A stretch of 64,000 nt of DNA from a virus: positions 19,396 to 83,395 of the IMG/VR virus record IMGVR_UViG_3300006919_000001. One strand, 5' to 3'. The notes beneath the pieces were generated by a model. That model worked only from the letters and a program-made list of their open reading frames with translations. It had not been told where the DNA came from and did no database searches. The stretch's first letter is position 1, and each line of letters begins with the position of its first letter. Below, piece after piece: positions 2,163 through 57,523 of the stretch. Both the position numbers and the translations under genes were made by a program.

Positions 2163-2254
2163 TAGTTTCAAGGAGAGGGTTCGAACCTCCAAGAATATTT
2201 ATAATATATCCGAACCCTTTAGAGCTCTACCTTTACCAGTTTGGCTACCTTGAT
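2163..2254 (-). ncRNA. Degenerate tRNA-like element (Leu/Ser-type long variable arm, 6-nt anticodon loop)
   Basis: TCAAGG/CCTTGA acceptor stem, D arm GCCAAACTGGTAAAGGT, T arm GGAGG-TTCGAAC-CCTCT, ends A-CTA; no canonical 7-nt anticodon loop. Confidence 0.7.
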
Positions 2255-2289
2255 TCCTTTTTCGATTTGGGGCAAAAAAGGGTTTGTTA

Positions 2290-2487
2290 TTAAATCCAAT
2301 TCTGTTTTACAAAATACTTGTATGCAGTTTTAAGAGAACGAAAATAATTAACGCCATCCCATTTATTCATAGTAAAAAACATACCATCGTTTGGGTCTCC
2401 CTTTTCTTTTACTTCACTAATACATAATCCTTTTGATTCAAATATTTTTACTATCTCTTCGTTTGTGATATCTACTAATGTTGTCAT
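2290..2487 (-). CDS. Hypothetical protein
   Basis: 65-aa ORF directly downstream of a consensus promoter. Confidence 0.6.
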   Translation of the reverse strand: MTTLVDITNEEIVKIFESKGLCISEVKEKGDPNDGMFFTMNKWDGVNYFRSLKTAYKYFVKQNWI

Positions 2488-2523
2488 GATATTTGATTTT
2501 AATTGTTGTTATAATTTCTTACG

Positions 2524-2556
2524 TAAAGATAATATTAATTTCCTTACAAACCTACA
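2524..2556 (-). promoter_or_regulatory. Host-type promoter TGTAGGTT-N17-TATCTTTA
   Basis: Matches the repeated 33-bp motif; the downstream box resembles the Bacteroidetes -7 element TAnnTTTG. Confidence 0.7.
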
Positions 2557-2616
2557 CCTTTCTTAAAAAACTTTTAAAAATAAAAAGGGACATAAATTAA
2601 TATGTCCCACTTTCTA

Positions 2617-4638
2617 TTATAAAACAATTAAACTACTCGAGTCTTTTAATGTAAATTGGTTGGCCTTTGACCACTTCCCATCATACTTTAATTCTCCATC
2701 GAATAATACTAACCTTTTTTCACTGCCCTTTAATTGGTCTGAGAATTTTTCGAATTCATTTGACCAAACTAGAATTTTACAAAGCTTATAATTATGCTCT
2801 ATGGTTAACCTAGCATATTGTCCATTCTTACTTCTAGCAACCCTGCACTCAACTACGTATCCACCGAATGCTCTGAATATTCCCTTCTCTTGTCTTTTTG
2901 TAAAATCGGACATAGAACAAAATTGAGATTCAATACCTTTCTCTATTGCAATTTTCTCATAACCAATATGAGCCAAACCTGTTAACTTCTTTTGTTGAAG
3001 GTTCCACCACCAACGCTCCCCTAGTTCCCCTATCGTATAGATGTCTCTAGCTGGATTCGATGGCTTTTTCTTAGCATGTATTCTATACCTCTTTATTAGA
3101 GAATGTCTTTTTTGCTCTTGTCCTGAGAATCCATATAGTATATCAAATGCTCCAGATGTTATCAATGCTTCAAATGTTGTTTTCTTCACCTTTGAACCTT
3201 TGAAGTTATGCCTTGAATAAAAATCAGCAAAAGATAAATAGAAACCATTGGCTTCTCTTTCATTGATAACTTGAAAAGCTGTATCCTCTCCAATTCCCTT
3301 AACAGAACCTAAGCCCCAGTAAATTGTTGAAGTCTCTTGGTTGGATATCATATTGATTCCCGACTTATTTATATCCGGCGACTTTATCTCTATCTGTTTT
3401 GATTGTAATATCTCAGACAGGTATGATAAGGTATCCGCCTCATTGGCATAATCCAAAGCCACTGTCCAATACTCTATGGGATAGTGTACTTTTAGGTATT
3501 GGCTTACATATCCGGTTAATGCATATGCCGCGGAGTGACTCTTGTTAAAAGAATACTTTGCAAACTCTGCAATTGCCGCCCATATCTCTTGGAACTCTTT
3601 ATCGGTAGCTCCTCTTTCTATGAAACCCTTTTTAACTATACCCTCCCATTGCTGGAGTACATCTAGTTTTTTCTTTCCAAGTGCCCTTCTTACATCATCA
3701 GCCTCTTTCATTGATAGACCACCTAGGTCCTGAAAGATTTGCATAATTTGCTCTTGATAAATTAACAGCCCATATGTGTCCTTGGTTATATGCTCCGTTC
3801 CCCAAAGGTATTTCGGAGACCTATTTCCATTCTTACACTTAACGTATATTTCATGGAAATGATTCTCCATAGGCCCCGGTCTATATAGCGCAACCGCAGC
3901 AATTAAATCATCTATTACCTGTGGCTTTAACGATTTAGTGTATGACGTTAATCCAGCTGAACCCATTTGGAATACATCTCCATTCCAACCGTTACTAAAA
4001 TACCTATATACTTCCCTATCCTGTGGAAGGTTATATATATTCGGAACCACCTTTCCACTCTTTTCTATTAGCTTTAATATATCGGCGAATTTATCCAACT
4101 GCCTAATCCCCAATATATCCTCTTTTAAGAATCCGGCATCATCCAAGTCTTCTCCACCCCACTCGCTTACCAACAAGCCTTGCTGTCTCCTCATCGGAAC
4201 CCATTCTTTGGCCGTTAATACATCCGGGAATACAACCATAGCGCAAGGGTGTATTGACTCCGTTTTTGGCTGGTCTAATAAGGAAGGCAGCATATGAAAT
4301 ATCTCAGAATTCTGTTTAATGAAGTTCTTGAGCTTAGGCTCCAGTGTTGCCCTCTTAATTAAATCAAGCATTGACGAATCCCCCTGACTTATAATTGCAG
4401 TCATTAGATTGGCCTCACTAAAATCAACCGATGATATTCTAGCCAAATCTTTTACCAATCCTTTTACCCTAAAAGTTGTAAAAGTACCAATTGAGCAAAC
4501 CTGAGTTTCTCCAAACCGCTCTTCAATATAAGACTTAATTGCCGCTCTGTCTCTACCACATAAATCTTGGTCAATATCTGGTAAGGTACCTCCGACTAAT
4601 TTAGGCTTTAATGATTCTGTTATATTATCTACTTTCAT
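2617..4638 (-). CDS. dnaE: DNA polymerase III alpha subunit, C-terminal half (split gene)
   Basis: PDIDQD catalytic motif, HPCAMVV, GFLKEDILG, ALYRPGPM, YQEQIM, YSFNKSH, OB-fold C-terminus. Confidence 0.95.
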   Translation of the reverse strand: MKVDNITESLKPKLVGGTLPDIDQDLCGRDRAAIKSYIEERFGETQVCSIGTFTTFRVKGLVKDLARISSVDFSEANLMTAIISQGDSSMLDLIKRATLEPKLKNFIKQNSEIFHMLPSLLDQPKTESIHPCAMVVFPDVLTAKEWVPMRRQQGLLVSEWGGEDLDDAGFLKEDILGIRQLDKFADILKLIEKSGKVVPNIYNLPQDREVYRYFSNGWNGDVFQMGSAGLTSYTKSLKPQVIDDLIAAVALYRPGPMENHFHEIYVKCKNGNRSPKYLWGTEHITKDTYGLLIYQEQIMQIFQDLGGLSMKEADDVRRALGKKKLDVLQQWEGIVKKGFIERGATDKEFQEIWAAIAEFAKYSFNKSHSAAYALTGYVSQYLKVHYPIEYWTVALDYANEADTLSYLSEILQSKQIEIKSPDINKSGINMISNQETSTIYWGLGSVKGIGEDTAFQVINEREANGFYLSFADFYSRHNFKGSKVKKTTFEALITSGAFDILYGFSGQEQKRHSLIKRYRIHAKKKPSNPARDIYTIGELGERWWWNLQQKKLTGLAHIGYEKIAIEKGIESQFCSMSDFTKRQEKGIFRAFGGYVVECRVARSKNGQYARLTIEHNYKLCKILVWSNEFEKFSDQLKGSEKRLVLFDGELKYDGKWSKANQFTLKDSSSLIVL

Positions 4639-4640
4639 CT

Positions 4641-6188
4641 CTAGTGTTTTATTATTTCATCTCCGACTACTATTTCATCGCAGTATACATTTATGATATT
4701 TCCATTTCTTTTAACCTTGGCTAATTGACCTTCGGCTAATCCAATTACATTTCCTTCTTTATCCTCATATTCAAAATAAGGCCTATCTTCAAATGCCCCC
4801 ATTCTCCCACTGTTCAAAAACCTTTCAAATAGTAAATCAAATTCCAAAGGGTCTACGTGGATTATGTTCAATAAATAAGCCACCAAAGAGCCTCCAGCAG
4901 AACCCCTTCCAATACCGGTTAACATGCCTTCACTTCTTGCGTGCTTAACTATGTCATGTAATATTAAAAAGTAATCAATAACATCACCCATTTTAAGAAC
5001 CTCGATTTCTTTCTTAACTCTATCAACATATTTCTGCTCTGTAATACCTTTTGATTTAAAACCCTCCGTAATTAAATTGATAAATAAAGCTTCGTTTGTA
5101 GCAAATGATTTAGCCTCTACTTTTGTCATTTCATACTTTGGTAAATGACGAGTATCAGTATCATATTTAAAATTACAATTTGCAACTAGTTCATCTTCGT
5201 TACTAGTGGCTTGCTTGAATAATTTAACCCAAGTTTTATTACCTCCCTCAAACATTACAATAAGTTCCTTTGCATATTGGTCTCTACTTTTAAAATATTG
5301 ATTATTAGTTTTATCATCAAACGCTTTTGCCACAGTCCACAAAGATTCTCTGGTTACATAATCATCCTGCTCTAGATAATATGCATCTGAAATACTTATA
5401 GGAGATAAGTCTGATTTTAGATAGCTCTCCAAGTTATCAATATATGCCGAATCTATGTCCTCGTTTAAAAACACAACAGTGTCCAGTTGGTAGAAATCAA
5501 TAGCATGCGAAAATTTAACTGTTTCCGCGTATCTAAGGGACTTTGGGTCTACCACCAAGTATAATCCATCTAAATTATTTAAAAGCTCCTCTAAAGCTAT
5601 CTTTCCGACTTTGTCAATATTCAACATTGAATTGAATTTAAGTAGACTTTGCCATCCTTGAAAATCTTTGGCATAGACCTTAACTTCGAAATCACTTTCT
5701 CCAGCAATTGGAAGTGTTTCTCCTATGATGGATTTGATACCATTTCTTTCACATAAGTTTTGAAATACTAGTACTCCACTTAATGTAGATTTCTCACAAA
5801 TTCCCAAAGCCTTAGTTCCTAAAAACTTTGCCTTCTTAATCCAATCTGAATAAAGACCCATTCCATTCATTAATTCATAACCAGAATGTATTCCTAAAAA
5901 GCTTGGAGTTGGTAATTGCATTTCCGGCTCTCCATAATACACCAATTCTTTTAGTTGGAGTTCTTCCTCCTCTGAAGATTGCAGATACCATCTACCTCCA
6001 AACTCATAAACCCAACCATCAACATCATTCACCAATACTGGCAAGAATTCCATGTCATTATTGAATAGCAATATATCACTTTCAACAATTTCAAACTCTG
6101 CCTCTTCTCCTAGTGTTAGGATTCCATCTTCTATCTCAAATTTTAATAATCTGGACTTGCAATATTTCTCTAATTTTTTATCCTGCAT
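4641..6188 (-). CDS. dnaE: DNA polymerase III alpha subunit, N-terminal half (PHP domain) with Hint-like C-terminal tail
   Basis: HSGYEL PHP start, DYFLIL, GIGRGSAGGSLVAYLL, VDPLEFDLLFERFLN. Confidence 0.93.
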   Translation of the reverse strand: MQDKKLEKYCKSRLLKFEIEDGILTLGEEAEFEIVESDILLFNNDMEFLPVLVNDVDGWVYEFGGRWYLQSSEEEELQLKELVYYGEPEMQLPTPSFLGIHSGYELMNGMGLYSDWIKKAKFLGTKALGICEKSTLSGVLVFQNLCERNGIKSIIGETLPIAGESDFEVKVYAKDFQGWQSLLKFNSMLNIDKVGKIALEELLNNLDGLYLVVDPKSLRYAETVKFSHAIDFYQLDTVVFLNEDIDSAYIDNLESYLKSDLSPISISDAYYLEQDDYVTRESLWTVAKAFDDKTNNQYFKSRDQYAKELIVMFEGGNKTWVKLFKQATSNEDELVANCNFKYDTDTRHLPKYEMTKVEAKSFATNEALFINLITEGFKSKGITEQKYVDRVKKEIEVLKMGDVIDYFLILHDIVKHARSEGMLTGIGRGSAGGSLVAYLLNIIHVDPLEFDLLFERFLNSGRMGAFEDRPYFEYEDKEGNVIGLAEGQLAKVKRNGNIINVYCDEIVVGDEIIKH

Positions 6189-6191
6189 GTT

Positions 6192-6443
6192 TTATTTTTT
6201 TACCCAAGTCTTATTGTTGACTATATTAGATATTGCGGTTGAACTTTTCTTATATCTATCCGCTATTTTTTTATTCGACATTCCAACCTCATTCGACAAT
6301 CTTCGAATCTCTGCTATATCATCCCAATTTAGTTTAGTCTTTTCTATTGGTGGGCTTTTATACTTTGGCTCCGGTTTTTCAACACTAGAGTTCCTAGCCC
6401 ATCCCGCACTTCCTACTTTACCATCTTTTCTTATCCAAGTCAT
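6192..6443 (-). CDS. Small HTH DNA-binding protein (resembles the C-terminal HTH of HNH homing endonucleases)
   Basis: KLNWDDIAEIRRL..GMSNKKIADRY..SSTAISNIVNNKTW. Confidence 0.6.
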   Translation of the reverse strand: MTWIRKDGKVGSAGWARNSSVEKPEPKYKSPPIEKTKLNWDDIAEIRRLSNEVGMSNKKIADRYKKSSTAISNIVNNKTWVKK

Positions 6444-6491
6444 AATATATATTTTGTTTGTCTAAAGATAATTTTAATATTTGGTTAAAAC

Positions 6492-6531
6492 TAATAAAAC
6501 CCCAACTATTTTACCAGCTGGGGTTTTATTA
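6492..6531. terminator. Intrinsic terminator hairpin
   Basis: TAATAAAACCCCA...TGGGGTTTTATTA inverted repeat after the 6543 gene. Confidence 0.7.
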
Positions 6532-6542
6532 ATCTTATGAAT

Positions 6543-6791
6543 CTAATCTTCCATCATTTCATCATCTTCCTTTTCCTCCTCCATTTGCTCAATAATCTTA
6601 TCAATGTTTAGGTCACTAGATAAGAAACCGTGGCCTTCACTTGTCATAATTTTCAAGTGGTCTAAAAAGTAAGCTTTTACATTTGACCTCATTCTAGTTC
6701 CGGCAATTGCCTCCTCTATTAATGCATGTGCCAATTCTAAAGCATCTCTCGCCTCTTCAAGTTGTTGGATTTTGTCTGTGTAATTTTTCAT
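6543..6791 (-). CDS. Hypothetical acidic protein
   Basis: 82-aa ORF with its own promoter (6820-6852) and terminator. Confidence 0.65.
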   Translation of the reverse strand: MKNYTDKIQQLEEARDALELAHALIEEAIAGTRMRSNVKAYFLDHLKIMTSEGHGFLSSDLNIDKIIEQMEEEKEDDEMMED

Positions 6792-6819
6792 AATGTTTGT
6801 TTTTAATTATTCGTTACTC

Positions 6820-6852
6820 CAAAGATATGGAAACTTATAATACGAACCTACA
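6820..6852 (-). promoter_or_regulatory. Host-type promoter TGTAGGTT-N17-TATCTTTG
   Basis: 33-bp consensus motif. Confidence 0.7.
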
Positions 6853-6867
6853 AAAATCTAAAAAACT

Positions 6868-7665
6868 TTAATTTGAATCCAAAACTAATTGAACCGCAAG
6901 CTTTACTTTGTCCCACGAAACAGTTCCATTCTCATCTGCATACAATGCTGGATCTTGCCTTCCAATTTCTAAAAACGCCTCTACTCTTTCAACCGAAGAT
7001 GCTGATTTATAATCAGAATACCAATGACCTTCGATTAAAATAGGCTTGTAGGATGTAAGCGTTTTAGAATACGCTGTGTCAAAATCAATACCTAACTTTT
7101 CACATGATACTAAACCTTCTCTTAATATATCAGCTTTCATCATTTCCAAATATGGAGTATAAAAGGAAACCTTATCCGCTCCCCAATTACCCTCCACAAA
7201 TGCTTTGAAATCAGCATCTCTAAATTCCTGTCTACAGTCTGGATACACAGCATGGTCTCCGGCATGGATTCCCATTGCAATCTTTACATCGCAACCTCCA
7301 TTTTCAGCAGAAACACTTAAAGCCACAGCTTGAATGATGGATGAAAATATTTTATTCCTATTTGGAACCACTGTGGCCTTCATGTTTTCATTCTCATAAT
7401 GACCCTCCGGCACATCCTCTCCACCTTCAACTAATGCTGAATTTAATAATGAAGTTAGGGTACTTAGGTCTATTACTTTATGTGTGACCTTGCAGCCTTC
7501 ATCCGTTAAATAATTAACTAAAGATTGGGCCTTTAATAATTCTACCCTATGCTTTTGTCCGTAGTCAAAAGAAAGTGCTGTTACTGAATAATCGTTAGCC
7601 AATAAGTTTAATAAAAGGGATGATGAATCCATCCCGCCTGATAATGATAATACCGCTCTTTTCAT
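6868..7665 (-). CDS. queC: 7-cyano-7-deazaguanine synthase
   Basis: SLSGGMDSS, FDYGQKH, TVVPNRNKIF, HAGDHAVYPDCR; the Zn-binding Cys motif is replaced (Bacteroidetes-like variant). Confidence 0.95.
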   Translation of the reverse strand: MKRAVLSLSGGMDSSSLLLNLLANDYSVTALSFDYGQKHRVELLKAQSLVNYLTDEGCKVTHKVIDLSTLTSLLNSALVEGGEDVPEGHYENENMKATVVPNRNKIFSSIIQAVALSVSAENGGCDVKIAMGIHAGDHAVYPDCRQEFRDADFKAFVEGNWGADKVSFYTPYLEMMKADILREGLVSCEKLGIDFDTAYSKTLTSYKPILIEGHWYSDYKSASSVERVEAFLEIGRQDPALYADENGTVSWDKVKLAVQLVLDSN

Positions 7666-7666
7666 T

Positions 7667-8179
7667 TTAAATGTTTTTTAATAATGTTTCTAACCTTTCC
7701 TCCACTGTTCCAGTTAATGTAATTGGAGATAAACCGTGGTAATCTATTCTCTCTAATAATATTTCATCAATTTCTCTTTGAAAACTTTCTCCTTCAAATC
7801 GAATTCCATCGCTAATCAAACCAAATTCAATTGGTATATAAAAGAATTTAACATCGGGGCGTGGAGTACTTGTAAATAAGTTATTCCTTCTTTCAGCCAA
7901 ATCATCCCAACCCAGAGCCTTGCAATATGCATAGTGGTCTAGTGGAGTCCTTGTTGTAAATAGGTTACTTATTCGAGTTTCTAAATCCCATTTATTGTCT
8001 GAAATTCTATTAATCAATATCTGCTGGTCTCTTGCGGTTAACTTACCTCCAATTTCTTTATCGAAGGCTTTAACTATTCTTGAATCACCATCTTTAACTA
8101 TGTAATTAGAGCCTCTAAGGGCCAAACTATTTAGCAAGGTAGTTTTACCTACACCGTGTGTTCCTATTAATGCTATCAT
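7667..8179 (-). CDS. P-loop ATPase/nucleotide kinase (NadR/AAA_28-like)
   Basis: IALIGTHGVGKTTL, RTPLDHYAY, FYIPIEF..DGIR, LTGTVEERL. Confidence 0.75.
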   Translation of the reverse strand: MIALIGTHGVGKTTLLNSLALRGSNYIVKDGDSRIVKAFDKEIGGKLTARDQQILINRISDNKWDLETRISNLFTTRTPLDHYAYCKALGWDDLAERRNNLFTSTPRPDVKFFYIPIEFGLISDGIRFEGESFQREIDEILLERIDYHGLSPITLTGTVEERLETLLKNI

Positions 8180-8958
8180 ATTAAATTCTTTTTAAATGAG
8201 CTTACGTTAAAGTCTATTGCTGCCCGTTGAGACTTTGTAGGAATGTGGGACAAAAGGTCAACTAATTTAATTGATTCTTTATAGTCCAGCGCTCCACCCT
8301 CATATGTGATATTTTTAATACCATGTACAATCGGGTTAGAAGTATCCAAAGAATAAACCCACTTATAATCTTTATAGTGTTTAAATTCTTGAGGTAATGA
8401 GCATCCTAATAAATGGTGTTCTTTTTCCTCATTAATAATACCTTCTTTTAACCAACGGTCAATCAGATTTTGACGACCTTCCATTCTACCTTTATCCGTT
8501 TGTTCGTAGTATGGATAATGGAAACAAATTGCGATTTGGTCACAAGCCCTATCCATGGCCCTGTAGCATGCAGTTAGTTCTTCATAGGTTGAACCCTGAA
8601 CTACCCCAATTGCTTTGCCCGGCACGTGGGCATAATACCTAAACCAATCATCTAGTTGTTGGCAAGTTTCCATTCCTTTCCCAAGTACATCTGGTACTAC
8701 ATAATGACTTGGTTTTAGTTTCATAATCCAGTATGCAAATTTGCTTGCTTCAAAAGCTTCGCCCAATTCAAATATGGAGTTATCTAAAATTACATCTCTA
8801 CCCGATTCTACCACGTCTTTATAAAATTGATAATACACAGAATTCTCTTCAAATAAATGAACGAGTGCATAATCATAATCATTAAATTCTAAGCTTTCTC
8901 CCAACATACAAGTTGGGACCTCGTGTGATACTTTGATTCTATTTATCGCTTGACCCAA
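8176..8958 (-). CDS. TGT-fold DpdA-like base-exchange enzyme (paralogue 1)
   Basis: ILDNSIFELG, VVPDVLG, GVVQG, HHLLG and SLDTS motifs; located within the que cluster. Confidence 0.75.
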   Translation of the reverse strand: MGQAINRIKVSHEVPTCMLGESLEFNDYDYALVHLFEENSVYYQFYKDVVESGRDVILDNSIFELGEAFEASKFAYWIMKLKPSHYVVPDVLGKGMETCQQLDDWFRYYAHVPGKAIGVVQGSTYEELTACYRAMDRACDQIAICFHYPYYEQTDKGRMEGRQNLIDRWLKEGIINEEKEHHLLGCSLPQEFKHYKDYKWVYSLDTSNPIVHGIKNITYEGGALDYKESIKLVDLLSHIPTKSQRAAIDFNVSSFKKNLI

Positions 8959-9376
8959 AACCTTTTTCCCCCCTATCTGCTTTAGTTACTTCATCAATAA
9001 ATGAAACCTCAGATGGTATCATAAAGTATGGAATTATTTGAGCAACTCCTTGCCCTTTTTTTATTACCTGAGTGTCACTTGAAAAGTTATATAATTTAAC
9101 TCCCAAGTCTCCGCGGTATCCATTATCAATAATTCCCAAGTGTGGTTGTAATCCTTTCTTGAATCCCAACCCAGACCTTGGTTCTATTCTGAACCAATAT
9201 CCCGGAGTTATATATCCCAATTTTAAACCCACCGATACTACTGCCGAACATCCAGCTTCGATTAATACATCCTCTACTGAGAATAGGTCATAACCAGCAT
9301 CTCCAGTTGATTTGCAATCATGGTTCTTTTCTGGAAGCATAGCCTCCTCATGTGTTTTTACAAATTTTATTTCCAT
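8939..9376 (-). CDS. dut: dUTPase (trimeric)
   Basis: AGYDL, RSGLG, GIIDNGYRG, RGEKGFGSS. Confidence 0.95.
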   Translation of the reverse strand: MEIKFVKTHEEAMLPEKNHDCKSTGDAGYDLFSVEDVLIEAGCSAVVSVGLKLGYITPGYWFRIEPRSGLGFKKGLQPHLGIIDNGYRGDLGVKLYNFSSDTQVIKKGQGVAQIIPYFMIPSEVSFIDEVTKADRGEKGFGSSDK

Positions 9377-10083
9377 TATCTTAAGTTATTTGCTAATTCA
9401 ATATTCTTATAAAATTCACTTCTTGCCATTGGCTCAGTAAAGAAAGCTCCAGTTAATTTTGCTGTTTGCATTGAAGCACCTTGATGTCCAACACCCCTAC
9501 AACTTACGCAATTATGTGTTGCCGAAATGTGTACGGCTACTCCTAAATTACCTTCGCAAATTTCCTCTACTGCGTTATGAATAGCGACTGTCAATTGCTC
9601 TTGTATAGCACCTCTTCTTCCGAAGTGTTCAACTATTCTATTTAGCTTTGATAAGCCTACTACCATTCCTTCGCTTGATGCAATGTAGGCTACGCTTACT
9701 TTTCCCATAATAGTTTGGTGGTGGTGGCTACATTGAGATACCAATGGAATATTACTTTCCTGCACAATAGCTCCATACCCATCACTTGGGAATGCAGTTA
9801 TTTTACTCATGTTTTCATAACGTCCCTTCCATAGGTCATTCACATAAGCTTTGGCCACTCTGCGTGGAGTGTCATTTGAATTTGGATCATTCTTCCAATC
9901 ACAACCTAATGCGTCTAAGAAATATCCATATGCGACCGCTGCATTGTTTATGATTACCTCTTTTTCTTCGGTTGATAATACTGCCTTTTTCCCCTCCGCT
10001 TTTTGCTTTTCTGCCAACTGCGTTGAAATTCCATTGGAGTGGCCAATTTTGGCTATCTCTAGGTTTAATACTTTTTCACTCAT
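9376..10083 (-). CDS. folE: GTP cyclohydrolase I
   Basis: TPRRVAK, CSHHH, GLSKLNR, QEQLT, HNCVSCRG. Confidence 0.95.
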   Translation of the reverse strand: MSEKVLNLEIAKIGHSNGISTQLAEKQKAEGKKAVLSTEEKEVIINNAAVAYGYFLDALGCDWKNDPNSNDTPRRVAKAYVNDLWKGRYENMSKITAFPSDGYGAIVQESNIPLVSQCSHHHQTIMGKVSVAYIASSEGMVVGLSKLNRIVEHFGRRGAIQEQLTVAIHNAVEEICEGNLGVAVHISATHNCVSCRGVGHQGASMQTAKLTGAFFTEPMARSEFYKNIELANNLR

Positions 10084-10148
10084 ATTTGTTTTCTAGTTTT
10101 ATTATTATTCGTTAAAGGTATGGAGAACTTTTCAATTCTCCACGCCTT

Positions 10149-10952
10149 TTAAAATGTATCGTATAAAAAGCTTCTGCTCTTAGCTCTTGCAAATGCATAT
10201 AGGGCCGCGTGTATTTTTAACTCTGCATAGGTATCCAATTCTGGATGCTCTTTTCTAGCATGAGCCAAATTGATAGCATATTGAAAAATTGAATAATCCA
10301 CAGTATCCGGTCGAACGAATTTAAAGGTCTCCACATTTTGGCAACCTAGTAAATGAACCTTCTTTCCACACTGTCTAGCATAGTTCATCATTTTCAATAA
10401 CTCTTCCCTATTGGTATGCCATGCTCTCTCCTGAGCTAAACCTCCAATTGCTAAAGTTGGATACATTTCGCTTTCACATAAATCTTTCCAATATTGAAAT
10501 CCTTGGTGTAGTTTAAATACTGGAGTAGGATACATGCCTGTAACATCAAACACCTCTTGCCTGCAATAATTGGATGGACACAATAGGTCTTCCGATTTTC
10601 TAAAGTATTCATTATCCAATTCAAATATCATATGATACTCTGCAATGGAACACATTTTTAAAAATTTCCTTTTCATCTTTTCACAAAGCTTTTCGAAATC
10701 TTCCTTGTCCAGTGTTTGTTGCTTTTTAAATAAAGTAAAACCACCAGAATCCAAAAATAATCTATCCTTGCCAACCATGTCATAAATCTCTTTCGTTACC
10801 ACAAATGGCATATCTACTGTTGAGATTAATACACTATTTGTAAAGGAGTCAAGTAGAGCTGGAAGTACTTTTCTCCACGTACCCTTTTCTCCGCACGAAT
10901 AGATAAGTCCGGCACCTAGTCCGTATACTAATTTGTCCTGCTCTTTACTCAT
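10149..10952 (-). CDS. TGT-fold DpdA-like protein (paralogue 2)
   Basis: FLDSGGFT, LAIGGLA, KVHLLG and DTVDYS motifs. Confidence 0.75.
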   Translation of the reverse strand: MSKEQDKLVYGLGAGLIYSCGEKGTWRKVLPALLDSFTNSVLISTVDMPFVVTKEIYDMVGKDRLFLDSGGFTLFKKQQTLDKEDFEKLCEKMKRKFLKMCSIAEYHMIFELDNEYFRKSEDLLCPSNYCRQEVFDVTGMYPTPVFKLHQGFQYWKDLCESEMYPTLAIGGLAQERAWHTNREELLKMMNYARQCGKKVHLLGCQNVETFKFVRPDTVDYSIFQYAINLAHARKEHPELDTYAELKIHAALYAFARAKSRSFLYDTF

Positions 10953-11373: not shown

Positions 11374-11402
11374 TATTTGTTTTTATTATTAATATTAATT
11401 CT

Positions 11403-11476
11403 TAGCCGTCGGTGTGGGAATCGAACCCACGGTCTTTTACTGTACTGTAAATGCTCTACCTTTGAGCTATCCTCCG
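11403..11476 (-). ncRNA. Degenerate tRNA-like element (6-nt anticodon loop, mismatched acceptor stem)
   Basis: TAGCTCAAAGGTAGAGC D arm, TTTAC-AGTACA-GTAAA arm, GTGGG-TTCGATT-CCCAC T arm, ends G-CTA. Confidence 0.7.
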
Positions 11477-11488
11477 TTTTGTAGCTGC

Positions 11489-11640
11489 GATTTAAAAAAG
11501 ATCGAACTTTAGAAAATTTAGCTACATTTTGTGGTCAAAAAAGATCGTTTTACATTTTTTACAAAATATATTTTTATCAAATCCAGCTTTTTCAAGCGCG
11601 ATTTCGATCTTTTCGATCTTAAAATCGATCTTTTTAAATC
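11489..11640. repeat. Cluster of five AAGATCG/CGATCTT repeats bounded by an inverted repeat
   Basis: GATC at 11500, 11543, 11606, 11615 and 11627; outer arms GATTTAAAAAAGATCGA / TCGATCTTTTTAAATC. Confidence 0.75.
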
Positions 11641-11678
11641 CGTATGTCGAAATGCGTGAACCGTTAATTACTAACTAG

Positions 11679-12613: not shown

Positions 12614-12614
12614 C

Positions 12615-13109: not shown

Positions 13110-13111
13110 AA

Positions 13112-13372: not shown

Positions 13373-13383
13373 AGTTTTTGTTT

Positions 13384-15379: not shown

Positions 15380-15447
15380 TCTATATATAAATAAGGGGTT
15401 ATATATTTACATATTACCCCTTTATTATAAATAATGATAGATAAAAA

Positions 15448-35159: not shown

Positions 35160-35226
35160 TAGTAACTCATAGGGGATTCGAACCCTTCTCTATAATTGTA
35201 CCACCTGGCCAGTTGGTGGATGAGTT
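35160..35226 (-). ncRNA. tRNA-like element lacking an anticodon arm
   Basis: Perfect AACTCAT/ATGAGTT acceptor stem, ACC-AACTGGCCA-GGT D arm, GGG-TTCGAAT-CCC T arm, ends A-CTA; only ~15 nt between the D and T arms. Confidence 0.7.
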
Positions 35227-35312
35227 AAAAGATAATAAGTTTGTATTTCACTTACTACCAACAATTGCCCTCGACTATACTGCATGTAGCAATATATTAT
35301 CTCGAAGTACCG

Positions 35313-51911: not shown

Positions 51912-52088
51912 TTGTTTTTGTTTTATGTTAATAAGTATCAATTTTAATTGTACTCTATATTCTCTATTAATAATTAAAGGAATACGTATCGTTTGAATGT
52001 AAATAAAGCAATCTAAGGGACTTTAAATGGTTTAACATATATTGTGTCAAATCATTATTTAAAGTCTCTTAGACCGTTTATATTTTAT

Positions 52089-53096
52089 TTATAGTTTTAT
52101 TCTTAATTCTCCTGTTGGTGTAGAATAGAATACTCCACTTGTAAGTCCACCAGCTAAAGCCGCAGCTTCATCTGCATATACTGGACTTGCACTTGTTTCT
52201 AAGTACTTTGCCATAACTTCACCTGCAAAGGTAGAAGGTAGGTCAACGTCTGAATCAATTACTTTAATTCCATTTGCTCTACCTTGAGTTAAATCATATC
52301 CAGCTTTTACCCAAAGATAAGAGCCTGAACCCCAACTTGAATTGCCTACTGGTCCTTGGTCAACTTCTAACATTAATCCAGTATAGAAAGCCATATCTCC
52401 TTTGGTCATTGCTAACTTAGAAATTGACCCATATACATCTATTATTGTAGCAGAATCATTATTCAAAGAAACATTACTTCTAGTTCCGTATGCAAAACTT
52501 ATTTCACCAGTTCCAGCAACATCCGTAAAATCAACTAAATTCTCAGCTGCACCTAATAACGCTACAGTTTCAATGCCTCTATTTCTATAGGATGCCTCGT
52601 TGTATAAACCGATTATCTCTGACGGTGCTCCAGTTGAATCAGTTCTTGCTCTATTATAAATACCTCTTAATTGAGATATATTACCAGCTCCATCATGTTC
52701 AGTTAGATTTGATATACCGTATACTAAATCTGCATTGTTTGCTGCATTGGCTTTGTTCACTGCATTGTAAAATGGAAACGTATTTCCACTTGTGGTTACT
52801 GAACCTAAAGAGTTAGAAAGGTTTGAACCAAAAGGGCTTGAAGCTCCTATGGTTAATTTTCCCGATACTAACTGTAAACTTTGAGTCGCTGCTACTGAAC
52901 CAACTGTTAATACTTGTTCTATGTTTCCTACCCCTGAAATTGCAGCACCACCAACCTTAACTGGTACGCCTTCATAATCATAAAGAAATAATTCTTTAGT
53001 GTCATCTGCAAAGTATCTATCACCGTATGGCAACGTTGCTGGTATGTCAGCGGCAGGTCCACCGTACTCACTTGTGTTAAAAATTTTTAAATACAT
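52089..53096 (-). CDS. Fibre/virion protein
   Basis: Shared N-terminal motif; C-terminal YADEAAALAGGL..G.FY.T..G.L.I motif. Confidence 0.6.
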   Translation of the reverse strand: MYLKIFNTSEYGGPAADIPATLPYGDRYFADDTKELFLYDYEGVPVKVGGAAISGVGNIEQVLTVGSVAATQSLQLVSGKLTIGASSPFGSNLSNSLGSVTTSGNTFPFYNAVNKANAANNADLVYGISNLTEHDGAGNISQLRGIYNRARTDSTGAPSEIIGLYNEASYRNRGIETVALLGAAENLVDFTDVAGTGEISFAYGTRSNVSLNNDSATIIDVYGSISKLAMTKGDMAFYTGLMLEVDQGPVGNSSWGSGSYLWVKAGYDLTQGRANGIKVIDSDVDLPSTFAGEVMAKYLETSASPVYADEAAALAGGLTSGVFYSTPTGELRIKL

Positions 53097-54388: not shown

Positions 54389-54814
54389 TTAATCTTTATT
54401 TTGTCCACCTGTAAATTTAATTACAACCGGATTATCATCTACACCATCAGTTCCACCAATCTCAATTTGTAAATCGGATTGTGTTGGAAACAATATTGTT
54501 GATAGTTCAGAGTCAATATTTGAGGCCACCCATTTGGATGCTTGAAAATGGTCTTTGTGTTGCGGGTCGTTTATAATATCATTTATATTATCAACCGACA
54601 CGTCCACCATCATTCTCTTATTAACTATCCACTCGTTTCTTAATTCGGTATTGTTAGCAAGCATCATGGAGACAATCGTTTTCTCTAGGCCGGTAGCTTT
54701 GGCTATCGTACTCCTAGTTGTCTTACCTTGCTTTATCGCAGCCCTGATTAGAACCTCTCTTTCACTACTAACTATCGCAGCTTCCCGAATACTATTCTTC
54801 ATGCTCTTTGCCAT
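54389..54814 (-). CDS. terS: Terminase small subunit
   Basis: N-terminal HTH; immediately upstream of terL. Confidence 0.65.
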   Translation of the reverse strand: MAKSMKNSIREAAIVSSEREVLIRAAIKQGKTTRSTIAKATGLEKTIVSMMLANNTELRNEWIVNKRMMVDVSVDNINDIINDPQHKDHFQASKWVASNIDSELSTILFPTQSDLQIEIGGTDGVDDNPVVIKFTGGQNKD

Positions 54815-55013
54815 AGTTCTCTTATTTTATTACCTCGTCCCTTATAGACTTAATGAGGTAGGTTAATGTCTCTTCTGTTATCTTACACACTATTTTTATG
54901 AACCTAACTACTACTATCACAATTTGAATTGGTGACAGTAGAAGCGCTAATAATAATGCTACAATCAATACTCCGAGTCTTTTCAATGTTCTCATAATTT
55001 GATCTTTTTTATT

Positions 55014-55083
55014 TAGTTAGTACCGTTGGGATCGAACCAACCACTCCGGCTATAGTACCGTTATGTCCTTTACACTTCTACTA
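55014..55083 (-). ncRNA. Degenerate tRNA-like element (6-nt anticodon loop)
   Basis: GTGT-AAAGG-ACAT D arm, CGGT-ACTATA-GCCG arm, GTTGG-TTCGATC-CCAAC T arm, ends A-CTA. Confidence 0.65.
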
Positions 55084-55138
55084 ATCTCCTTGTCGGGAGT
55101 ATAAAGTTCCAATGCACGAATGCCCGAAACTTACTTTT

Positions 55139-55654
55139 TTAATTACTTGCTCTCCATTCTCCTCCTCCAAATACTTGGATTCTTGGAACTAGTTTGCCCA
55201 CCTGCTGCTCTCCATCATCATCAAACTCTTCCTCTAAAAAAGAAAGAACATCAACCATAAAATCTTCTGCTACTGACTTTGCCTCATTTGACAATGCCTT
55301 TGCAGCATTTCTATCTTCAGCTCCATCTTCAGACGCAGAGATTAAACCCGAATCCGTAAAGACCGTGTGGTATAATCTTAATAGTCTACTATACGTATAA
55401 AAGCATAGTGCTGGTATAATCAAAGCTTTCAACTGCTTATCAGCATCGCTCACTGGAGTTATAGACGCTGGGTCTACAATACACCTCTTGAGATTATCTT
55501 CTCCGATTACCCTTTTTATATCTATATTTTGTGCTATCAGTTGTGCTGACTTACATTTGGTTTCATCAATATCCTGTTGAATATTACAATAATCTGCAAG
55601 CGCATCAACTATATTCGGGAGAATTAAAGAATTCTCATTTATTCCCGTATACAT
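55139..55654 (-). CDS. Head-tail adaptor protein
   Basis: AQ..DIK.VIG, I.PAL..Y.Y.R and T.SG pattern; follows the portal gene. Confidence 0.6.
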   Translation of the reverse strand: MYTGINENSLILPNIVDALADYCNIQQDIDETKCKSAQLIAQNIDIKRVIGEDNLKRCIVDPASITPVSDADKQLKALIIPALCFYTYSRLLRLYHTVFTDSGLISASEDGAEDRNAAKALSNEAKSVAEDFMVDVLSFLEEEFDDDGEQQVGKLVPRIQVFGGGEWRASN

Positions 55655-55672
55655 AATTGTTGTTTGTTTTTA

Positions 55673-57040
55673 TTAATCCAGCCAAACAGATACCTGCTCT
55701 TCTGTTAATCCAAAACCGGTAAGCATTTGCTCTGCTTGTGCTCTTGAGATTTCTTCTTTGTTAAATTTTCTAACCACCCTTTGTAGGTTTTGCATTTCAC
55801 GTCCACTCATTTTTGAAAATACAGCGTTCGCTTTTGCCTCCTCTAAAGTCTCTCCTTCAATTACTTCACCTTCAGGAAGAACGTCCTCTTCATCAAGTGA
55901 TAATTTCTTAATACTAATTGACTTGGTATTAAAAACGGAATGAGCCAGTATTCGATTTAGCTCTCCTTCTATCATATCTCTACCACCTTGTGTAATGGAA
56001 TTGAATACAAAGTAAGCCTCCTTTAAATCTGCCCCTGAGAATCCAGTTGAGTTGTCAATTCCCGATAATGCTGGTGGTATTAAATACGCCCCAGTGATTA
56101 CGTTCTTGTCAAGGTTATATGCTAATTCAGCAGCTTCTATAATTGCTTTCGAACCAGCTCCACCTCCACCTATTTCTTCAAGTAATGTAGCTGTAACCTC
56201 CTCTGGAGATAATCCACTAAATGTGATTATCTTTCCTGAGCCTCTAGCCCCTTGAGCTTCTGCTATTGCTGATTGCATTGCATCCAATGTTGCATCTCCA
56301 CTTTCCAATGAAGTTTTCAACATATATGTATTAATGAATCCAGTTGAAGTTTCTTTCCTTACTAGGATTGAATTTTCAACATCACTCAATACATAATTTA
56401 CTGGAGCCTGTAATGGAGATATCGGGTATGAACTATGCCCAGTTTCAGTGTGGTAAAGCATTTGCCCTAAATAGTTTCCTATTCCACCTTTTGTGCTCTC
56501 TATTTGCTTCAAGGCAACCTCCGGATTGAATCTATCAAACCATCTTATGTCTCCTTTTGTAAGTGCTTTTGTAATTGCTTTGTGAACCTCTGAATTCCTA
56601 CCAAAGTTTTGGTGGTATCCTATTTTAGAAGCATAGTTTAATTCATCGAATTGATTGAACCTAAGCTCTGCAATTCTCATTGGATTAATTCCAGTTACTT
56701 TTCCTTCTAAATTATAATTAACCTGCAAGGCGAATGCCTCCCAAGTAGCGTAATCTTCAGCCATGATTGATACAACTTTCTTCAAAGTCAATCCTCTAGT
56801 TGAAACTATTTCATCTTCTCCATCAAACCCAGCACCTTTGTAAAACTTAGCGGTTCTTGTAACTGCTGGTTTTGCGTTGGCTGATTGTTCGATTAAATTA
56901 ATCATTGATTGTGGAAATGTATTTGTAAATCCCCAATCCATAATACCCAAGGAAATATTCTCCCTTGTCCATATTTGTGCAACTTCTCGATGTGATTGCA
57001 TGTTGAAGTTGGTTACTGCTGGTATGTTATATTTTGACAT
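55673..57040 (-). CDS. Portal protein
   Basis: WG..N.FPQ, G..GSGK, I...Y.IPP.L.GI...TGFS, Q...IE..LN.I. Confidence 0.8.
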   Translation of the reverse strand: MSKYNIPAVTNFNMQSHREVAQIWTRENISLGIMDWGFTNTFPQSMINLIEQSANAKPAVTRTAKFYKGAGFDGEDEIVSTRGLTLKKVVSIMAEDYATWEAFALQVNYNLEGKVTGINPMRIAELRFNQFDELNYASKIGYHQNFGRNSEVHKAITKALTKGDIRWFDRFNPEVALKQIESTKGGIGNYLGQMLYHTETGHSSYPISPLQAPVNYVLSDVENSILVRKETSTGFINTYMLKTSLESGDATLDAMQSAIAEAQGARGSGKIITFSGLSPEEVTATLLEEIGGGGAGSKAIIEAAELAYNLDKNVITGAYLIPPALSGIDNSTGFSGADLKEAYFVFNSITQGGRDMIEGELNRILAHSVFNTKSISIKKLSLDEEDVLPEGEVIEGETLEEAKANAVFSKMSGREMQNLQRVVRKFNKEEISRAQAEQMLTGFGLTEEQVSVWLD

Positions 57041-57085
57041 AAGTCTATCTAATTTTATTTTAGATAGACTTTATCATCTATCCTG

Positions 57086-57307
57086 TTATTGTTGTGTTTC
57101 TTTTTTTCTATGCTTTCTTAATGTTTGAACGCAATGAGAGAATGAGTGTTTTTTCATATTGTGGTCCTCTACTTTAAATGTAGTTTGATATACATCATAA
57201 ACCGCACGCTCAGCGATTGGCCCAAATGATTTTGCAAATACGTCCACATCCAAGAATTTTTTCCTTGGCTTTCTTTTTACTGTTGTACTCTTGTTTACTA
57301 CTGACAT
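57086..57307 (-). CDS. Small basic hypothetical protein
   Basis: 73 aa; first gene of the packaging module. Confidence 0.5.
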   Translation of the reverse strand: MSVVNKSTTVKRKPRKKFLDVDVFAKSFGPIAERAVYDVYQTTFKVEDHNMKKHSFSHCVQTLRKHRKKETQQ

Positions 57308-57446
57308 TGTAATATAATTTTGGTAATATACTTTTGGAATATTCCGAGGTGTATACTGTGAACCTCTTTAATCCTTTTCAAAAATACGGATTGAGTTTTA
57401 ATTCAACCCGTACCCATAAAAACTAAATTATGAAAATTGAAAAGAT

Positions 57447-57523
57447 TGTTAACTAGCGGAGAGTCGAACTCCTATTATGAATACCCATTGTCCTGATTAA
57501 CAGTGTCAATGTTATTCCTAGTT
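57447..57523 (-). ncRNA. Degenerate tRNA-like element
   Basis: AACTAG/CTAGTT acceptor stem, TAAC/GTTA D stem, GGAG-TTCGACT-CTCC T arm; stunted anticodon arm. Confidence 0.55.

What the first reader, a model, noticed from the sequence alone, without database searches (positions are those of the whole stretch)
2163..57523. Five dispersed tRNA-shaped RNAs, all with disabled anticodon arms
Seen at 2163-2254, 11403-11476, 35160-35226, 55014-55083 and 57447-57523 (all minus strand, intergenic, co-oriented with mRNA). Each keeps a TTCGA T-loop with a paired T stem, a D stem and at least partial acceptor pairing. Three have 6-nt anticodon loops (CTAAAG, AGTACA, ACTATA), one has essentially no anticodon arm and one has a stunted arm. 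Four end N-CTA. No intact tRNA was found in the window. Random decay is not expected to spare the elbow while breaking every anticodon arm. Inference: these may be tRNA mimics acting as RNase P/Z punctuation sites in long transcripts, decoys for host anticodon nucleases, or modulators of stringent-response/tRNA-sensing defences.
Basis: partly seen in the sequence, partly recalled or inferred. Interest (0 to 1): 0.75.

Follow-up and report, generated by a model that had tools for sequence, protein, structure and literature searches.

The report
tRNA top-half mimics between phage genes
A freshwater phage of Flavobacteria-type hosts carries five tRNA-derived RNA folds that keep only the part of a tRNA that the cell's tRNA-trimming enzymes recognise, and they most likely mark where its long messages are cut just in front of genes.

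Summary
The five elements exist where stated, on the coding strand and between genes. None has a normal 7-nt anticodon loop. ARAGORN calls only site 1, with a 2-nt "anticodon". The Rfam tRNA model scores site 2 at 37.5 bits, site 1 at 28.4 and site 3 at 19.1, and does not hit sites 4 or 5.

The window belongs to an 83.4-kb phage related to Cbastvirus (Cellulophaga phage phiST, Tenacibaculum phage Larrie). In eight related genomes a strict T-arm motif occurs 28 times on the coding strand and never on the other. One locus, between the portal/170-aa gene and the terminase genes, holds such an element in nearly every lineage sampled. These range from cloverleaf tRNAs to 42-nt acceptor/T-arm minihelices. 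Across orthologues, 14 of 18 changed acceptor/T pairs still pair, while the middle is rewritten or deleted.

Most elements end with a discriminator (usually A) followed by C, and lie 15-33 nt before a start codon.

Best reading (about 0.55): analogues of plant-mitochondrial t-elements, cut by host RNase P and RNase Z. No RNA data exist, so cleavage is inferred. Plain pseudogenes and released decoy RNAs remain possible; anticodon-nuclease decoys are unlikely. This scan has noted similar minihelices in other phages. I found none in print for phages.

The parts
2165..2254 (-). Site 1: 90-nt tRNA-like element with a long variable arm and a 6-nt 'anticodon' loop. It ends A-CTA, and an ATG follows 15 nt after the discriminator (37-aa ORF, then a sigma-factor gene at 1505-2041).
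   Evidence: ARAGORN tRNA-???; Rfam tRNA 28.4 bits; custom model 54 bits as a seed sequence; distance to ATG; sigma factor.
11405..11476 (-). Site 2: 72-nt cloverleaf with a 6-nt loop and an acceptor stem of 4 of 7 pairs plus a tandem G.A. It ends G-CTA, and an ATG follows at 33 nt (ParB-like gene).
   Evidence: Rfam tRNA 37.5 bits, above the cut-off of 29; fold; neighbouring genes QueE and ParB-like.
35162..35226 (-). Site 3: 65-nt element with a 7-bp acceptor stem, a D-like hairpin, no anticodon arm and a TTCGAAT T loop. It ends A-CTA, and an ATG follows at 16 nt (51-aa ORF, then virion structural genes).
   Evidence: Rfam tRNA 19.1 bits, E 0.01; custom model 21.8 bits, E 0.007; acceptor shuffle p 0.008.
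35227..35262 (-). Promoter-like motif (weak -33 part, TATCTTTT -7 box) that abuts the 5' end of site 3.
   Evidence: Relaxed regex match. It is the only one of 13 matches whose spacing and upstream half depart from the GTAGGTTCGTA-N17-TATCTTTA pattern, so its status as a promoter is uncertain.
55016..55084 (-). Site 4: 69-nt element with a 5-bp T arm, a 4-bp stem with a 6-nt loop, and an outer stem of 5-6 pairs. It ends A-CTA, and an ATG follows at 22 nt (57-aa membrane ORF, then a 141-aa gene and terminase). This is the one site with orthologues in nearly all relatives.
   Evidence: T-arm scan; synteny; custom model only 14.4 bits, E 1.3; no Rfam tRNA hit.
57448..57524 (-). Site 5: 77-nt element with a perfect 7-bp outer stem, a 4-bp T arm (loop TTCGACT) and a long irregular hairpin. 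It ends A-CAA and lies downstream of the RNA polymerase gene.
   Evidence: Fold z-score -3.6; acceptor shuffle p 0.010; custom model 13.4 bits, E 2.7; no Rfam tRNA hit; no orthologue seen in G001.
57380..57410 (-). Hairpin of about 9 bp followed by TTTTT, about 35 nt after site 5. It looks like a terminator, so site 5 may end a transcription unit or be a separate small RNA.
   Evidence: Read directly. The consensus terminator scan did not list it.

Best explanation
The five elements are tRNA genes that have lost decoding ability. They are kept as cis-acting copies of the tRNA top half: the acceptor stem stacked on the T arm, with a GG-bearing loop that can close the elbow. In the phage's polycistronic RNAs, host RNase P would cut at the 5' edge and host RNase Z at or just after the discriminator. 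This would free the downstream cistron with a short A-rich leader of 15-33 nt, and would release a small tRNA-like RNA that the host CCA-adding enzyme could cap.

Shown:
- the shapes of the elements;
- their restriction to the coding strand;
- their position just before start codons;
- syntenic persistence of one locus;
- pair-preserving evolution of the top half;
- free change of the rest.

Inferred: the cleavage, the enzymes involved and the benefit to the phage.
For: 1. Strand and place. The strict T-arm motif gives 28 hits in 8 related genomes, all on the coding strand. Some of these genomes overlap, for example G001/G004 and G003/G005. Of 29 elements (the 28 plus site 3, added by hand), 3 lie inside long ORFs and the other 26 are taken as intergenic. 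The script flagged four of those 26 as overlapping an ORF of 60 aa or more; I judged these overlaps spurious by eye. Most are followed by an ATG 15-33 nt after the discriminator.

2. Custom model. An acceptor-plus-T-arm covariance model searched over 503,535 nt gives 40 hits at E<=10, 39 of them on the coding strand.

3. Conserved locus. At the spacer after the portal and 170-aa genes, 14 of the 15 metagenome loci with at least 900 nt downstream carry an element. So do G000, G001/G004, G002, G003, G005, Larrie, L009, L014 and L021. ARAGORN sees a tRNA in none of the 19 metagenome loci.

4. Reduction series at syntenic sites.
- At the portal locus: cloverleaf tRNAs in G002 and G005, 65-81-nt non-canonical forms, and 44-nt minihelices in L051/L052.
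- G002 37376 is a cloverleaf. Its orthologue G003 25060 has the same flanks, acceptor and T arm but a scrambled middle.
- G002 48362 is 90 nt. The phiST element at the same place is about 42 nt.

5. Orthologue comparisons. Of 101 top-half pairs, 82 are unchanged, 9 changed on both sides and still pair, 5 changed on one side and still pair, 4 are broken and 1 is unpaired in the reference. Three of the four breaks come from a misaligned 5' strand of site 4. One change is counted three times, so there are 7 independent double changes. Of 311 middle columns, 96 differ or are gapped.

6. Pair counts on the model-fitted alignment. 90.8% of cells pair, against 45-50% when the partners are slid. The covariation score is 0.738 against 0.10-0.19.

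7. 3' end. The C after the discriminator is present in 31 of 31 aligned elements, but I chose those 3' ends by eye. The unbiased register shows the same [A/C/T]-C-[A/T/G]-A pattern, with a one-base shift in some elements.

8. Phage enzymes. The phage encodes no CCA-adding enzyme, RtcB or Ro60, so any processing would rely on the host.

9. Precedent. Plant-mitochondrial t-elements with the same GGTTCRANYCC motif have mapped RNase P and RNase Z ends and non-templated C/A additions (PMC1920247, passages read).
Against: - There is no RNA evidence at all. No RNA run holds the phage, so no cut site has been seen.
- Only site 4 has orthologues. Sites 1, 2, 3 and 5 were not found at the matching places in G001, G002, L001 or L002, so they could be recent and neutral.
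- phiST and L067 lack the site-4 element, so it is dispensable.
- Elements were found through their T arm. Remnants that kept only a bottom half would have been missed.
- The acceptor stems of sites 2 and 4 are no better than chance on their own.
- Co-orientation, intergenic position and the A-C trailer would also hold for ordinary phage tRNA genes.
- The alignment behind one search was fitted to the structure, and descent from different tRNAs by itself gives covariation among non-orthologous copies.
- Site 5 is followed by a terminator-like hairpin rather than a start codon, so it does not fit the 'leader-trimming' picture.
Confidence: 0.55

Rival explanations
1. These are plain decaying tRNA pseudogenes. 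The phage lineage gains tRNA genes and loses them, and the five elements are neutral wrecks whose T arm and acceptor stem happen to survive so far.
For: Relatives carry higher-scoring tRNAs: 62.7 and 49.3 bits in G005, and 42.9-56.3 bits in G002. Four of the five window sites have no orthologue in the relatives examined. Some lineages lack the site-4 element. Detection was conditioned on a T arm. The acceptor stems of sites 2 and 4 are weak.
Against: At the site-4 locus about 18 distinct sequences keep an acceptor/T-arm stack while the middle is rewritten, replaced by another hairpin (L061 against L065), shortened by 12 nt (L062) or cut to a 12-nt linker (L051/L052). Of 18 changed top-half pairs in orthologue comparisons, 14 still pair. 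ARAGORN finds a 7-nt anticodon loop in only 6 of the 31 aligned elements. Neutral decay should damage both halves alike.
Confidence: 0.13
2. The released small RNAs are the point. After excision and CCA addition, the top-half mimics would act in trans as decoys or sponges for host factors that read the acceptor/T-arm end of tRNA. Candidates are acceptor-end toxins of defence systems, tRNA-modifying enzymes, EF-Tu and uncharged-tRNA sensors.
For: The conserved part is what such factors contact. Site 5 looks like a separate unit, with a promoter-like stretch before it and a hairpin plus T-run after it. The elbow GG and the TTCRA loop are kept even in the 44-nt forms. Bacterial YrlA RNAs show that tRNA mimics without a decoding loop are modified, cut by RNase P and CCA-tailed in vivo (PMC4201824, passages read).
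Against: The tight coupling to a start codon 15-33 nt downstream is not needed for a trans-acting RNA. The acceptor sequences differ freely between orthologues, so no specific tRNA identity is mimicked. No partner protein such as Ro60 is encoded. This reading is compatible with the best explanation rather than opposed to it.
Confidence: 0.15
3. The elements are cis-acting translation or stability elements that are not cut. A compact fold just upstream of the leader would keep the A-rich start region unstructured, or protect the 5' end of the message, in hosts that do not use Shine-Dalgarno pairing.
For: The distance to the ATG is constant. Two phiST elements, and perhaps site 3, sit directly after a -7 promoter box, so they would be at the 5' end of the transcript. 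Several site-4 orthologues have a further conserved hairpin between the element and the ATG, with wobble-preserving changes (L011 against L054).
Against: Any stable hairpin would serve this purpose. It does not explain why the TTCRA loop, the 11-12-bp stack and the discriminator-C trailer, which are features read by tRNA enzymes, are what is conserved.
Confidence: 0.08
4. They are working tRNAs with unusual anticodon loops, for example frameshifting or otherwise specialised decoders.
For: Site 1, the Larrie element at 21140-21211 and the G002 Leu-like tRNA share a CTAA(A/G)G loop sequence. Site 2 passes the Rfam cut-off.
Against: Three sites have 6-nt loops, one has no arm and one has an irregular hairpin. 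The acceptor stem of site 2 has three non-standard pairs. No loop sequence is conserved among orthologues at the site-4 locus. No recoding signal was looked for or seen in the ORF map under table 11.
Confidence: 0.03

Closest known systems
t-elements of plant mitochondria (Forner et al. 2007, PMC1920247; passages read)
   Same: Both are tRNA-derived, non-canonical cloverleaves or acceptor/T-arm folds with the GGTTCRANYCC motif, lying in mRNA leaders and trailers. In plants their borders coincide with mRNA ends made by RNase P and RNase Z, and the excised RNAs carry non-templated C/A. Four of the five window sites match that motif exactly. In both systems some transcripts come from a T7-type single-subunit RNA polymerase (phage gene at 57814-60132; the plant part is recalled).
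   Different: The present elements are in a phage of Bacteroidota-type hosts, not an organelle. Cleavage has not been shown here. The position 15-33 nt before start codons is much tighter than in plants. There is an invariant C after the discriminator, and a documented reduction series down to about 42 nt at one syntenic locus.
tRNA punctuation of animal mitochondrial transcripts (search listing and abstracts only; model otherwise recalled)
   Same: Polycistronic RNAs are cut into messages by RNase P and RNase Z at interspersed tRNA shapes.
   Different: There the punctuating units are the organelle's own working tRNAs and flank nearly every gene. Here most units cannot decode, and only a few gene junctions carry one.
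Bacterial Y RNAs of the YrlA type (Chen et al. 2014, PMC4201824; passages read)
   Same: Both are tRNA mimics with T arm, D arm and acceptor-like stem but no decoding loop. One relative (Yrn1) even has a 6-nt 'anticodon' loop. They are substrates for RNase P and CCA addition, and they also occur in phages.
   Different: YrlA lies next to Ro60/Rsr and has a Ro-binding helix. This phage has no TROVE-domain gene, and no Y RNA family reached its cut-off in the Rfam scan. The elements here are embedded between protein genes.
Acceptor/T-arm minihelix substrates of RNase P, RNase Z and CCA-adding enzyme (recalled biochemistry; no paper read here)
   Same: The 42-44-nt forms in L051/L052 and phiST consist of this minimal substrate plus a short GG-bearing linker.
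   Different: Those minihelices are laboratory constructs. These are natural and conserved.
Earlier notes of this scan on tRNA-like minihelices in other phages (e1-1239721, e1-3458200, e1-3448024, e1-3446769)
   Same: The same kind of element, placed between phage genes, and the same proposed reading.
   Different: Those are AI notes on other genomes, mostly actinobacterial phages, and were not checked here. The present case adds full-length cloverleaf-derived forms and a locus where the whole series from tRNA to minihelix can be seen.

Membership tests
Canonical tRNA (Rfam RF00005) | Score at or above the curated cut-off of 29 bits | tested here: not met
   Met by 1 of 5 sites. Site 2 scores 37.5 bits, site 1 28.4 and site 3 19.1. 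Sites 4 and 5 have no hit at E<=10.
Canonical tRNA (Rfam RF00005) | 5-bp anticodon stem closing a 7-nt loop with U33 and a purine at position 37 | tested here: not met
   Met by 0 of 5 sites. Sites 1, 2 and 4 have 6-nt loops, site 3 has no arm, and site 5 has an irregular hairpin with a 5-nt loop.
Canonical tRNA (Rfam RF00005) | 7-bp acceptor stem and 5-bp T stem with a TTCRA loop | tested here: inconclusive
   Acceptor pairs: 7 of 7 in sites 3 and 5, 6 of 7 in site 1, 5-6 in site 4, 4 of 7 in site 2. T stem: 5 bp in sites 1, 2 and 4, 4 bp in site 5, 3-4 bp in site 3.
Canonical tRNA (Rfam RF00005) | Aminoacylation and use in translation | not testable with these tools
   No RNA or biochemical data are available.
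Plant-mitochondrial t-elements (functional analogue) | Conserved T-arm motif GGTTCRANYCC inside a non-canonical tRNA-like fold | tested here: met
   Met by sites 1-4. Site 5 differs at both ends of the motif. The motif is taken from PMC1920247.
Plant-mitochondrial t-elements (functional analogue) | Element borders coincide with mapped mRNA 5' or 3' ends, and excised RNAs carry non-templated C/A | not testable with these tools
   No RNA run holds the phage.
Plant-mitochondrial t-elements (functional analogue) | Residence in a plant mitochondrial genome | tested here: not met
   The record is a phage genome with terminal repeats. Its closest named relatives are Cbastvirus phages. The claim is therefore 'works like', not 'is a member of'.
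YrlA / bacterial Y RNA | Encoded next to a Ro60 (TROVE) gene and matching a Y RNA model | tested here: not met
   There is no TROVE match in the genome. No Rfam family other than tRNA reached its cut-off in the window.
tmRNA tRNA-like domain | tmRNA gene with a tag reading frame | tested here: not met
   ARAGORN reports no tmRNA, and there is no Rfam tmRNA hit.

The most novel reading that the evidence does not exclude
This clade of Flavobacteria-type phages may run a mitochondrion-style punctuation system. Each such gene would then receive its own 5' end and a short A-rich leader. That could matter especially in hosts that do not use Shine-Dalgarno pairing to find internal start codons. The excised CCA-capped minihelices could additionally soak up host factors that bind tRNA ends.
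Probability: 0.3. Interest if true: 0.8.

Novelty: new variant of a known kind. Interest (0 to 1): 0.6.

Why it matters
If these elements are cut as proposed, phages have reinvented the organellar trick of using tRNA shapes as punctuation. The 'tRNA pseudogenes' that annotation pipelines discard, or never see, would then be regulatory signals. ARAGORN finds none in phiST, in the published Larrie annotation (PMC10013915) or in the 19 metagenome loci.

The result would give a concrete, testable handle on mRNA processing and translation start selection in Bacteroidota phages. It would also explain why tRNA-like fragments persist in phage genomes, and provide a natural series that defines the minimal substrate of bacterial RNase P and RNase Z in vivo. 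Two cultured phage-host pairs, phiST/Cellulophaga baltica and Larrie/Tenacibaculum, carry such elements, so the test is feasible.

Tried and rejected
- Near-identical phage records: none for window 1-20000.
- DNA polymerase as anchor. This gave three short contigs whose downstream regions are not homologous to the site 1 region and have no tRNA hit.
- Capsid-region protein as anchor: no relatives found.
- ParB-like protein as anchor. This gave one unrelated larger phage without tRNA-like hits.
- Loosened ARAGORN thresholds and loosened T-arm or acceptor scans. These returned mostly noise on both strands and were not used.
- An extra T-arm-like hit at 11495-11511 was dropped. Its stem is A/U-only, it does not abut an outer stem, and it lies in the GATC-rich repeat region noted earlier by the scan.
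- Three strict-motif hits inside long ORFs (G000 genome 43886, G002 7258, Larrie 63585; all TTCAA loops) were treated as chance.
- The idea that the 'anticodon' regions are promoters of the phage's T7-type polymerase was not pursued beyond a visual resemblance. No shared motif other than the T arm unites the elements, and a different repeated motif (18880, 25352, 52057) is a better promoter candidate.
- Automated covariation counts with a fixed 5+7 register, or with the minimum-energy fold of one member, picked wrong 5' strands or spurious helices and reported many 'breaks'. They were replaced by numerically specified top-half pairs. L050 against L059 could not be scored automatically because MAFFT gapped the 3' strand. 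By eye, five acceptor pairs differ on both sides and still pair.
- No RNA holder was listed for the window. Contigs of four DNA runs showed no variants in 54800-57700.
- Host tRNA gene trailers were not examined, so it is unknown whether the C after the discriminator is a host-wide habit.
- An 18-nt D-arm pattern from site 2 matched tRNAs of many isotypes and phyla and did not reveal a donor.
- Literature searches for phage t-elements or minihelices found nothing relevant. Subscription journals and supplementary files were not visible. The genome paper on the Cellulophaga phages (recalled, not read) may say something about tRNAs.


Full report
WHAT THE WINDOW IS

The window is bases 19396-83395 of an 83,395-bp virus record with direct terminal repeats. 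G+C is about 35% and GC skew is strongly negative throughout. Nearly all long ORFs lie on the minus strand.

PHROG matches identify these genes:
- a split PolIII-alpha-type DNA polymerase;
- a primase/helicase;
- a T7-type single-subunit RNA polymerase (57814-60132);
- portal and terminase;
- virion proteins;
- QueE, a DpdA-like gene and a ParB-like gene;
- a sigma factor (1505-2041).

The closest named phages are Cellulophaga phage phiST and its kin, and Tenacibaculum phage Larrie (genus Cbastvirus). The RNA polymerase is 56% and 50% identical to theirs, and the portal 68% and 56%. The DNA is held only by freshwater metagenome runs.

THE OBSERVATION

Detection by standard tools:
- ARAGORN reports only site 1, as a tRNA with a 2-nt anticodon, which means a 6-nt loop.
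- The Rfam tRNA model scores site 2 at 37.5 bits, above the cut-off of 29.
- It scores site 1 at 28.4 bits and site 3 at 19.1 bits.
- It does not hit sites 4 or 5 even at E<=10 in a 2.8-kb search.

Sites 1, 2 and 4 have 6-nt loops, site 3 has no anticodon arm, and site 5 has an irregular long hairpin. Four elements end N-CTA and site 5 ends A-CAA. No normal tRNA exists anywhere in the genome.

Minimum-energy folds give an outer stem for all five and a T hairpin for sites 2-5. The z-scores are modest, -0.4 to -3.6.

Against shuffled upstream sequence, acceptor pairing is significant only for sites 3 and 5 (p 0.008 and 0.010). It is not significant for sites 2 and 4.

RELATIVES

I fetched phiST and Larrie. 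I also fetched five IMG/VR relatives, G001-G005, and 19 metagenome loci anchored on the portal gene.

A strict T-arm motif (G-TTCRA-NN-C with at least 4 contiguous stem pairs) occurs 28 times in the eight genomes. Every occurrence is on the coding strand. Some of these genomes overlap, so the hits are not all independent.

Three hits lie inside long ORFs, have TTCAA loops and are probably chance. The other 26 elements (25 motif hits plus site 3, added by hand) I take as intergenic. The script flagged four of them as overlapping an ORF of 60 aa or more, and I judged those overlaps spurious by eye.

I built a covariance model that encodes only the acceptor and T stems, from eight of the more tRNA-like elements. 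Over 503,535 nt it finds 40 matches at E<=10, and 39 of them are on the coding strand. Results for the window:
- sites 1 and 2 are found, as seed sequences;
- site 3 is found at E 0.007;
- sites 4 and 5 are found only weakly, at E 1.3 and 2.7;
- one further weak match, at 24471-24536, lies inside an ORF.

THE CONSERVED LOCUS

Synteny mapping shows that site 4 lies in a spacer between a 170-aa virion gene that follows the portal gene and a small membrane ORF. That ORF is followed by a 141-aa gene and the large terminase.

The spacer holds a T-arm element in G000, G001/G004, G002 (three tRNAs), G003, G005 (two), Larrie, L009, L014 and L021. It also holds one in 14 of the 15 metagenome loci that extend at least 900 nt past the portal match. 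L067 has only a 33-nt spacer, and phiST has no spacer there.

ARAGORN calls a tRNA in none of the 19 metagenome loci. The published Larrie annotation says that no tRNA is present (PMC10013915, passage read).

Three kinds of form occur at this one locus:
- Cloverleaf tRNAs, for example a Phe-GAA of 62.7 bits in G005 and a Glu-TTC of 56.3 bits in G002. Several of the cloverleaves look odd for their isotype.
- Forms of 49-81 nt with other hairpins in the middle.
- 44-nt forms in which a 6-bp outer stem stacks directly on a 6-bp T stem, with a 12-nt GG-bearing linker (L051, L052).

Other syntenic pairs tell the same story. G002 37376 is a cloverleaf. G003 25060 shares its flanks, acceptor 3' strand and T arm, but its middle is unrelated. 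After the RecA-like gene, G002 has a 90-nt element and phiST one of about 42 nt. Larrie and phiST both have an element directly upstream of the polymerase N-part gene.

HOW THE ELEMENTS EVOLVE

I made nine orthologue comparisons with numerically specified acceptor and T pairs. The 101 pairs divide as follows:
- 82 unchanged;
- 9 changed on both sides and still pairing;
- 5 changed on one side and still pairing;
- 4 broken;
- 1 unpaired in the reference.

Three of the four breaks come from MAFFT misplacing the 5' strand of site 4 against L011. One change, shared by L056, L062 and L064, is counted three times, so there are 7 independent double changes. The regions between the two stems differ or are gapped in 96 of 311 columns.

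L011 and L054 are nearly identical. They differ by two double compensatory changes in the T stem and three changes in loops. L061 and L065 share the top half, but each carries a different middle hairpin. L062 has lost 12 nt of the middle.

L050 against L059 could not be scored automatically. By eye, five acceptor pairs differ on both sides and still pair, while the middle is about 85% identical.

On the model-fitted alignment of all 40 matches, 90.8% of cells form standard pairs, against 45-50% when partners are slid. The covariation score is 0.738 against 0.10-0.19. That alignment leans towards the structure, and copies descended from different tRNAs covary for that reason alone. The orthologue comparisons are therefore the stronger evidence.

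Cruder automatic counts gave many apparent breaks, because they chose wrong registers or included bottom-half helices.

CONTEXT OF THE ELEMENTS

After the outer stem comes a discriminator, A in 24 of the 31 aligned elements, and then a C in all 31. I chose those ends by eye. The unbiased register shows the same pattern, shifted by one base where the stack is 11 bp rather than 12 bp. CCA is never encoded.

An ATG that opens an ORF follows 15-33 nt later in most cases. The distances for sites 1-4 are 15, 33, 16 and 22 nt.

Site 5 is different. A hairpin with a T-run follows it, and the next ATG is 142 nt away.

The phage has about eleven copies of a fixed-spacing promoter-like motif, GTAGGTTCGTA-N17-TATCTTTA. 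Two phiST elements follow such a -7 box directly. A weaker match abuts site 3. Some elements would therefore lie at the very 5' end of a transcript.

The phage encodes no CCA-adding enzyme, RtcB or Ro60.

INTERPRETATION

What is conserved is the 11-12-bp acceptor/T stack, the TTCRA loop, a GG that can close the elbow, and the discriminator-C trailer. By recalled biochemistry, these are the features that RNase P, RNase Z and the CCA-adding enzyme read. The part needed for decoding is free to change.

The closest described system is the plant-mitochondrial t-element. It has the same T-arm motif and a non-canonical body. Its mRNA ends have been mapped to the element borders, and its excised RNAs carry non-templated C/A (PMC1920247).

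I therefore read the five sites as processing signals that detach the downstream cistron with a short leader.

This remains inference, for these reasons:
- no RNA data exist;
- four of the five window sites have no orthologue in the relatives I could find;
- the site-4 element is missing in two lineages;
- discovery was conditioned on a T arm.

Neutral pseudogenes, trans-acting decoys and uncut structural leaders remain possible and are scored as rivals. Decoys for anticodon nucleases are unlikely, because the anticodon loop is the least conserved part.

NOVELTY

Seven literature searches found no description of such elements in phages. Earlier AI notes of this scan report similar minihelices in other phages, and one note on this genome describes site 3. 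Those notes are not independent evidence.

I class the finding as a new variant of a known kind.

Noticed in passing
window 2524-2555, 6820-6851, 15218-15249, 42076-42107, 42919-42950, 43230-43261, 43852-43883, 44095-44126, 45760-45791, 61375-61406 (minus strand): A fixed-length promoter-like motif, GTAGGTT(C/T)(G/A)TA-N17-TAT(C/A)TTT(A/G), lies 20-35 nt before start codons and clusters in the small-ORF region at 42-46 kb. The -7 part looks like the Bacteroidota TAnnTTTG box (recalled). The conserved upstream half may be read by the phage's own sigma factor (ORF 1505-2041, PHROG sigma factor).
   Followed up: partly
window 18880-18915, 25352-25387, 52057-52092: Three copies of a 36-nt repeat lie upstream of structural and packaging genes (family D15). 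This is a candidate promoter for the phage's T7-type RNA polymerase.
   Followed up: no
L011 3975-4010, L054, L055, L051/L052 (just after the site-4-type element): In several relatives a further hairpin sits between the tRNA-like element and the start codon. Its changes preserve pairing by wobble (L011 against L054). It could be a 5' stabiliser of the processed message. The window phage lacks it.
   Followed up: no
G003 genome 9065-9135 and 43786-43856 (L043, L045): Two copies of one 70-nt tRNA-like element, about 93% identical, lie 35 kb apart with different flanks, and their T stems differ by a compensatory change. The elements can evidently be copied between loci.
   Followed up: partly
L081 (Bacteroidales MAG), L088 (Spirosoma MAG), L137 (Saprospiraceae MAG), at the pattern matches: Chromosomal tRNA-like sequences of Bacteroidota share the site 2 D arm but have a 3-5-nt loop where the anticodon loop should be. 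They may be YrlA-type Y RNAs. The control Bacteroides genome has a TROVE gene.
   Followed up: no
window 11480-11640: A GATC-rich inverted-repeat region lies upstream of site 2. It contains the spurious T-arm-like hit at 11495-11511 and was already noted by the scan (e1-6116319).
   Followed up: no
L067 1279-1311: In the one portal locus without an element, the 33-nt spacer still contains an AACTAAAA stretch like the usual trailer. This may be the footprint of a deletion.
   Followed up: no
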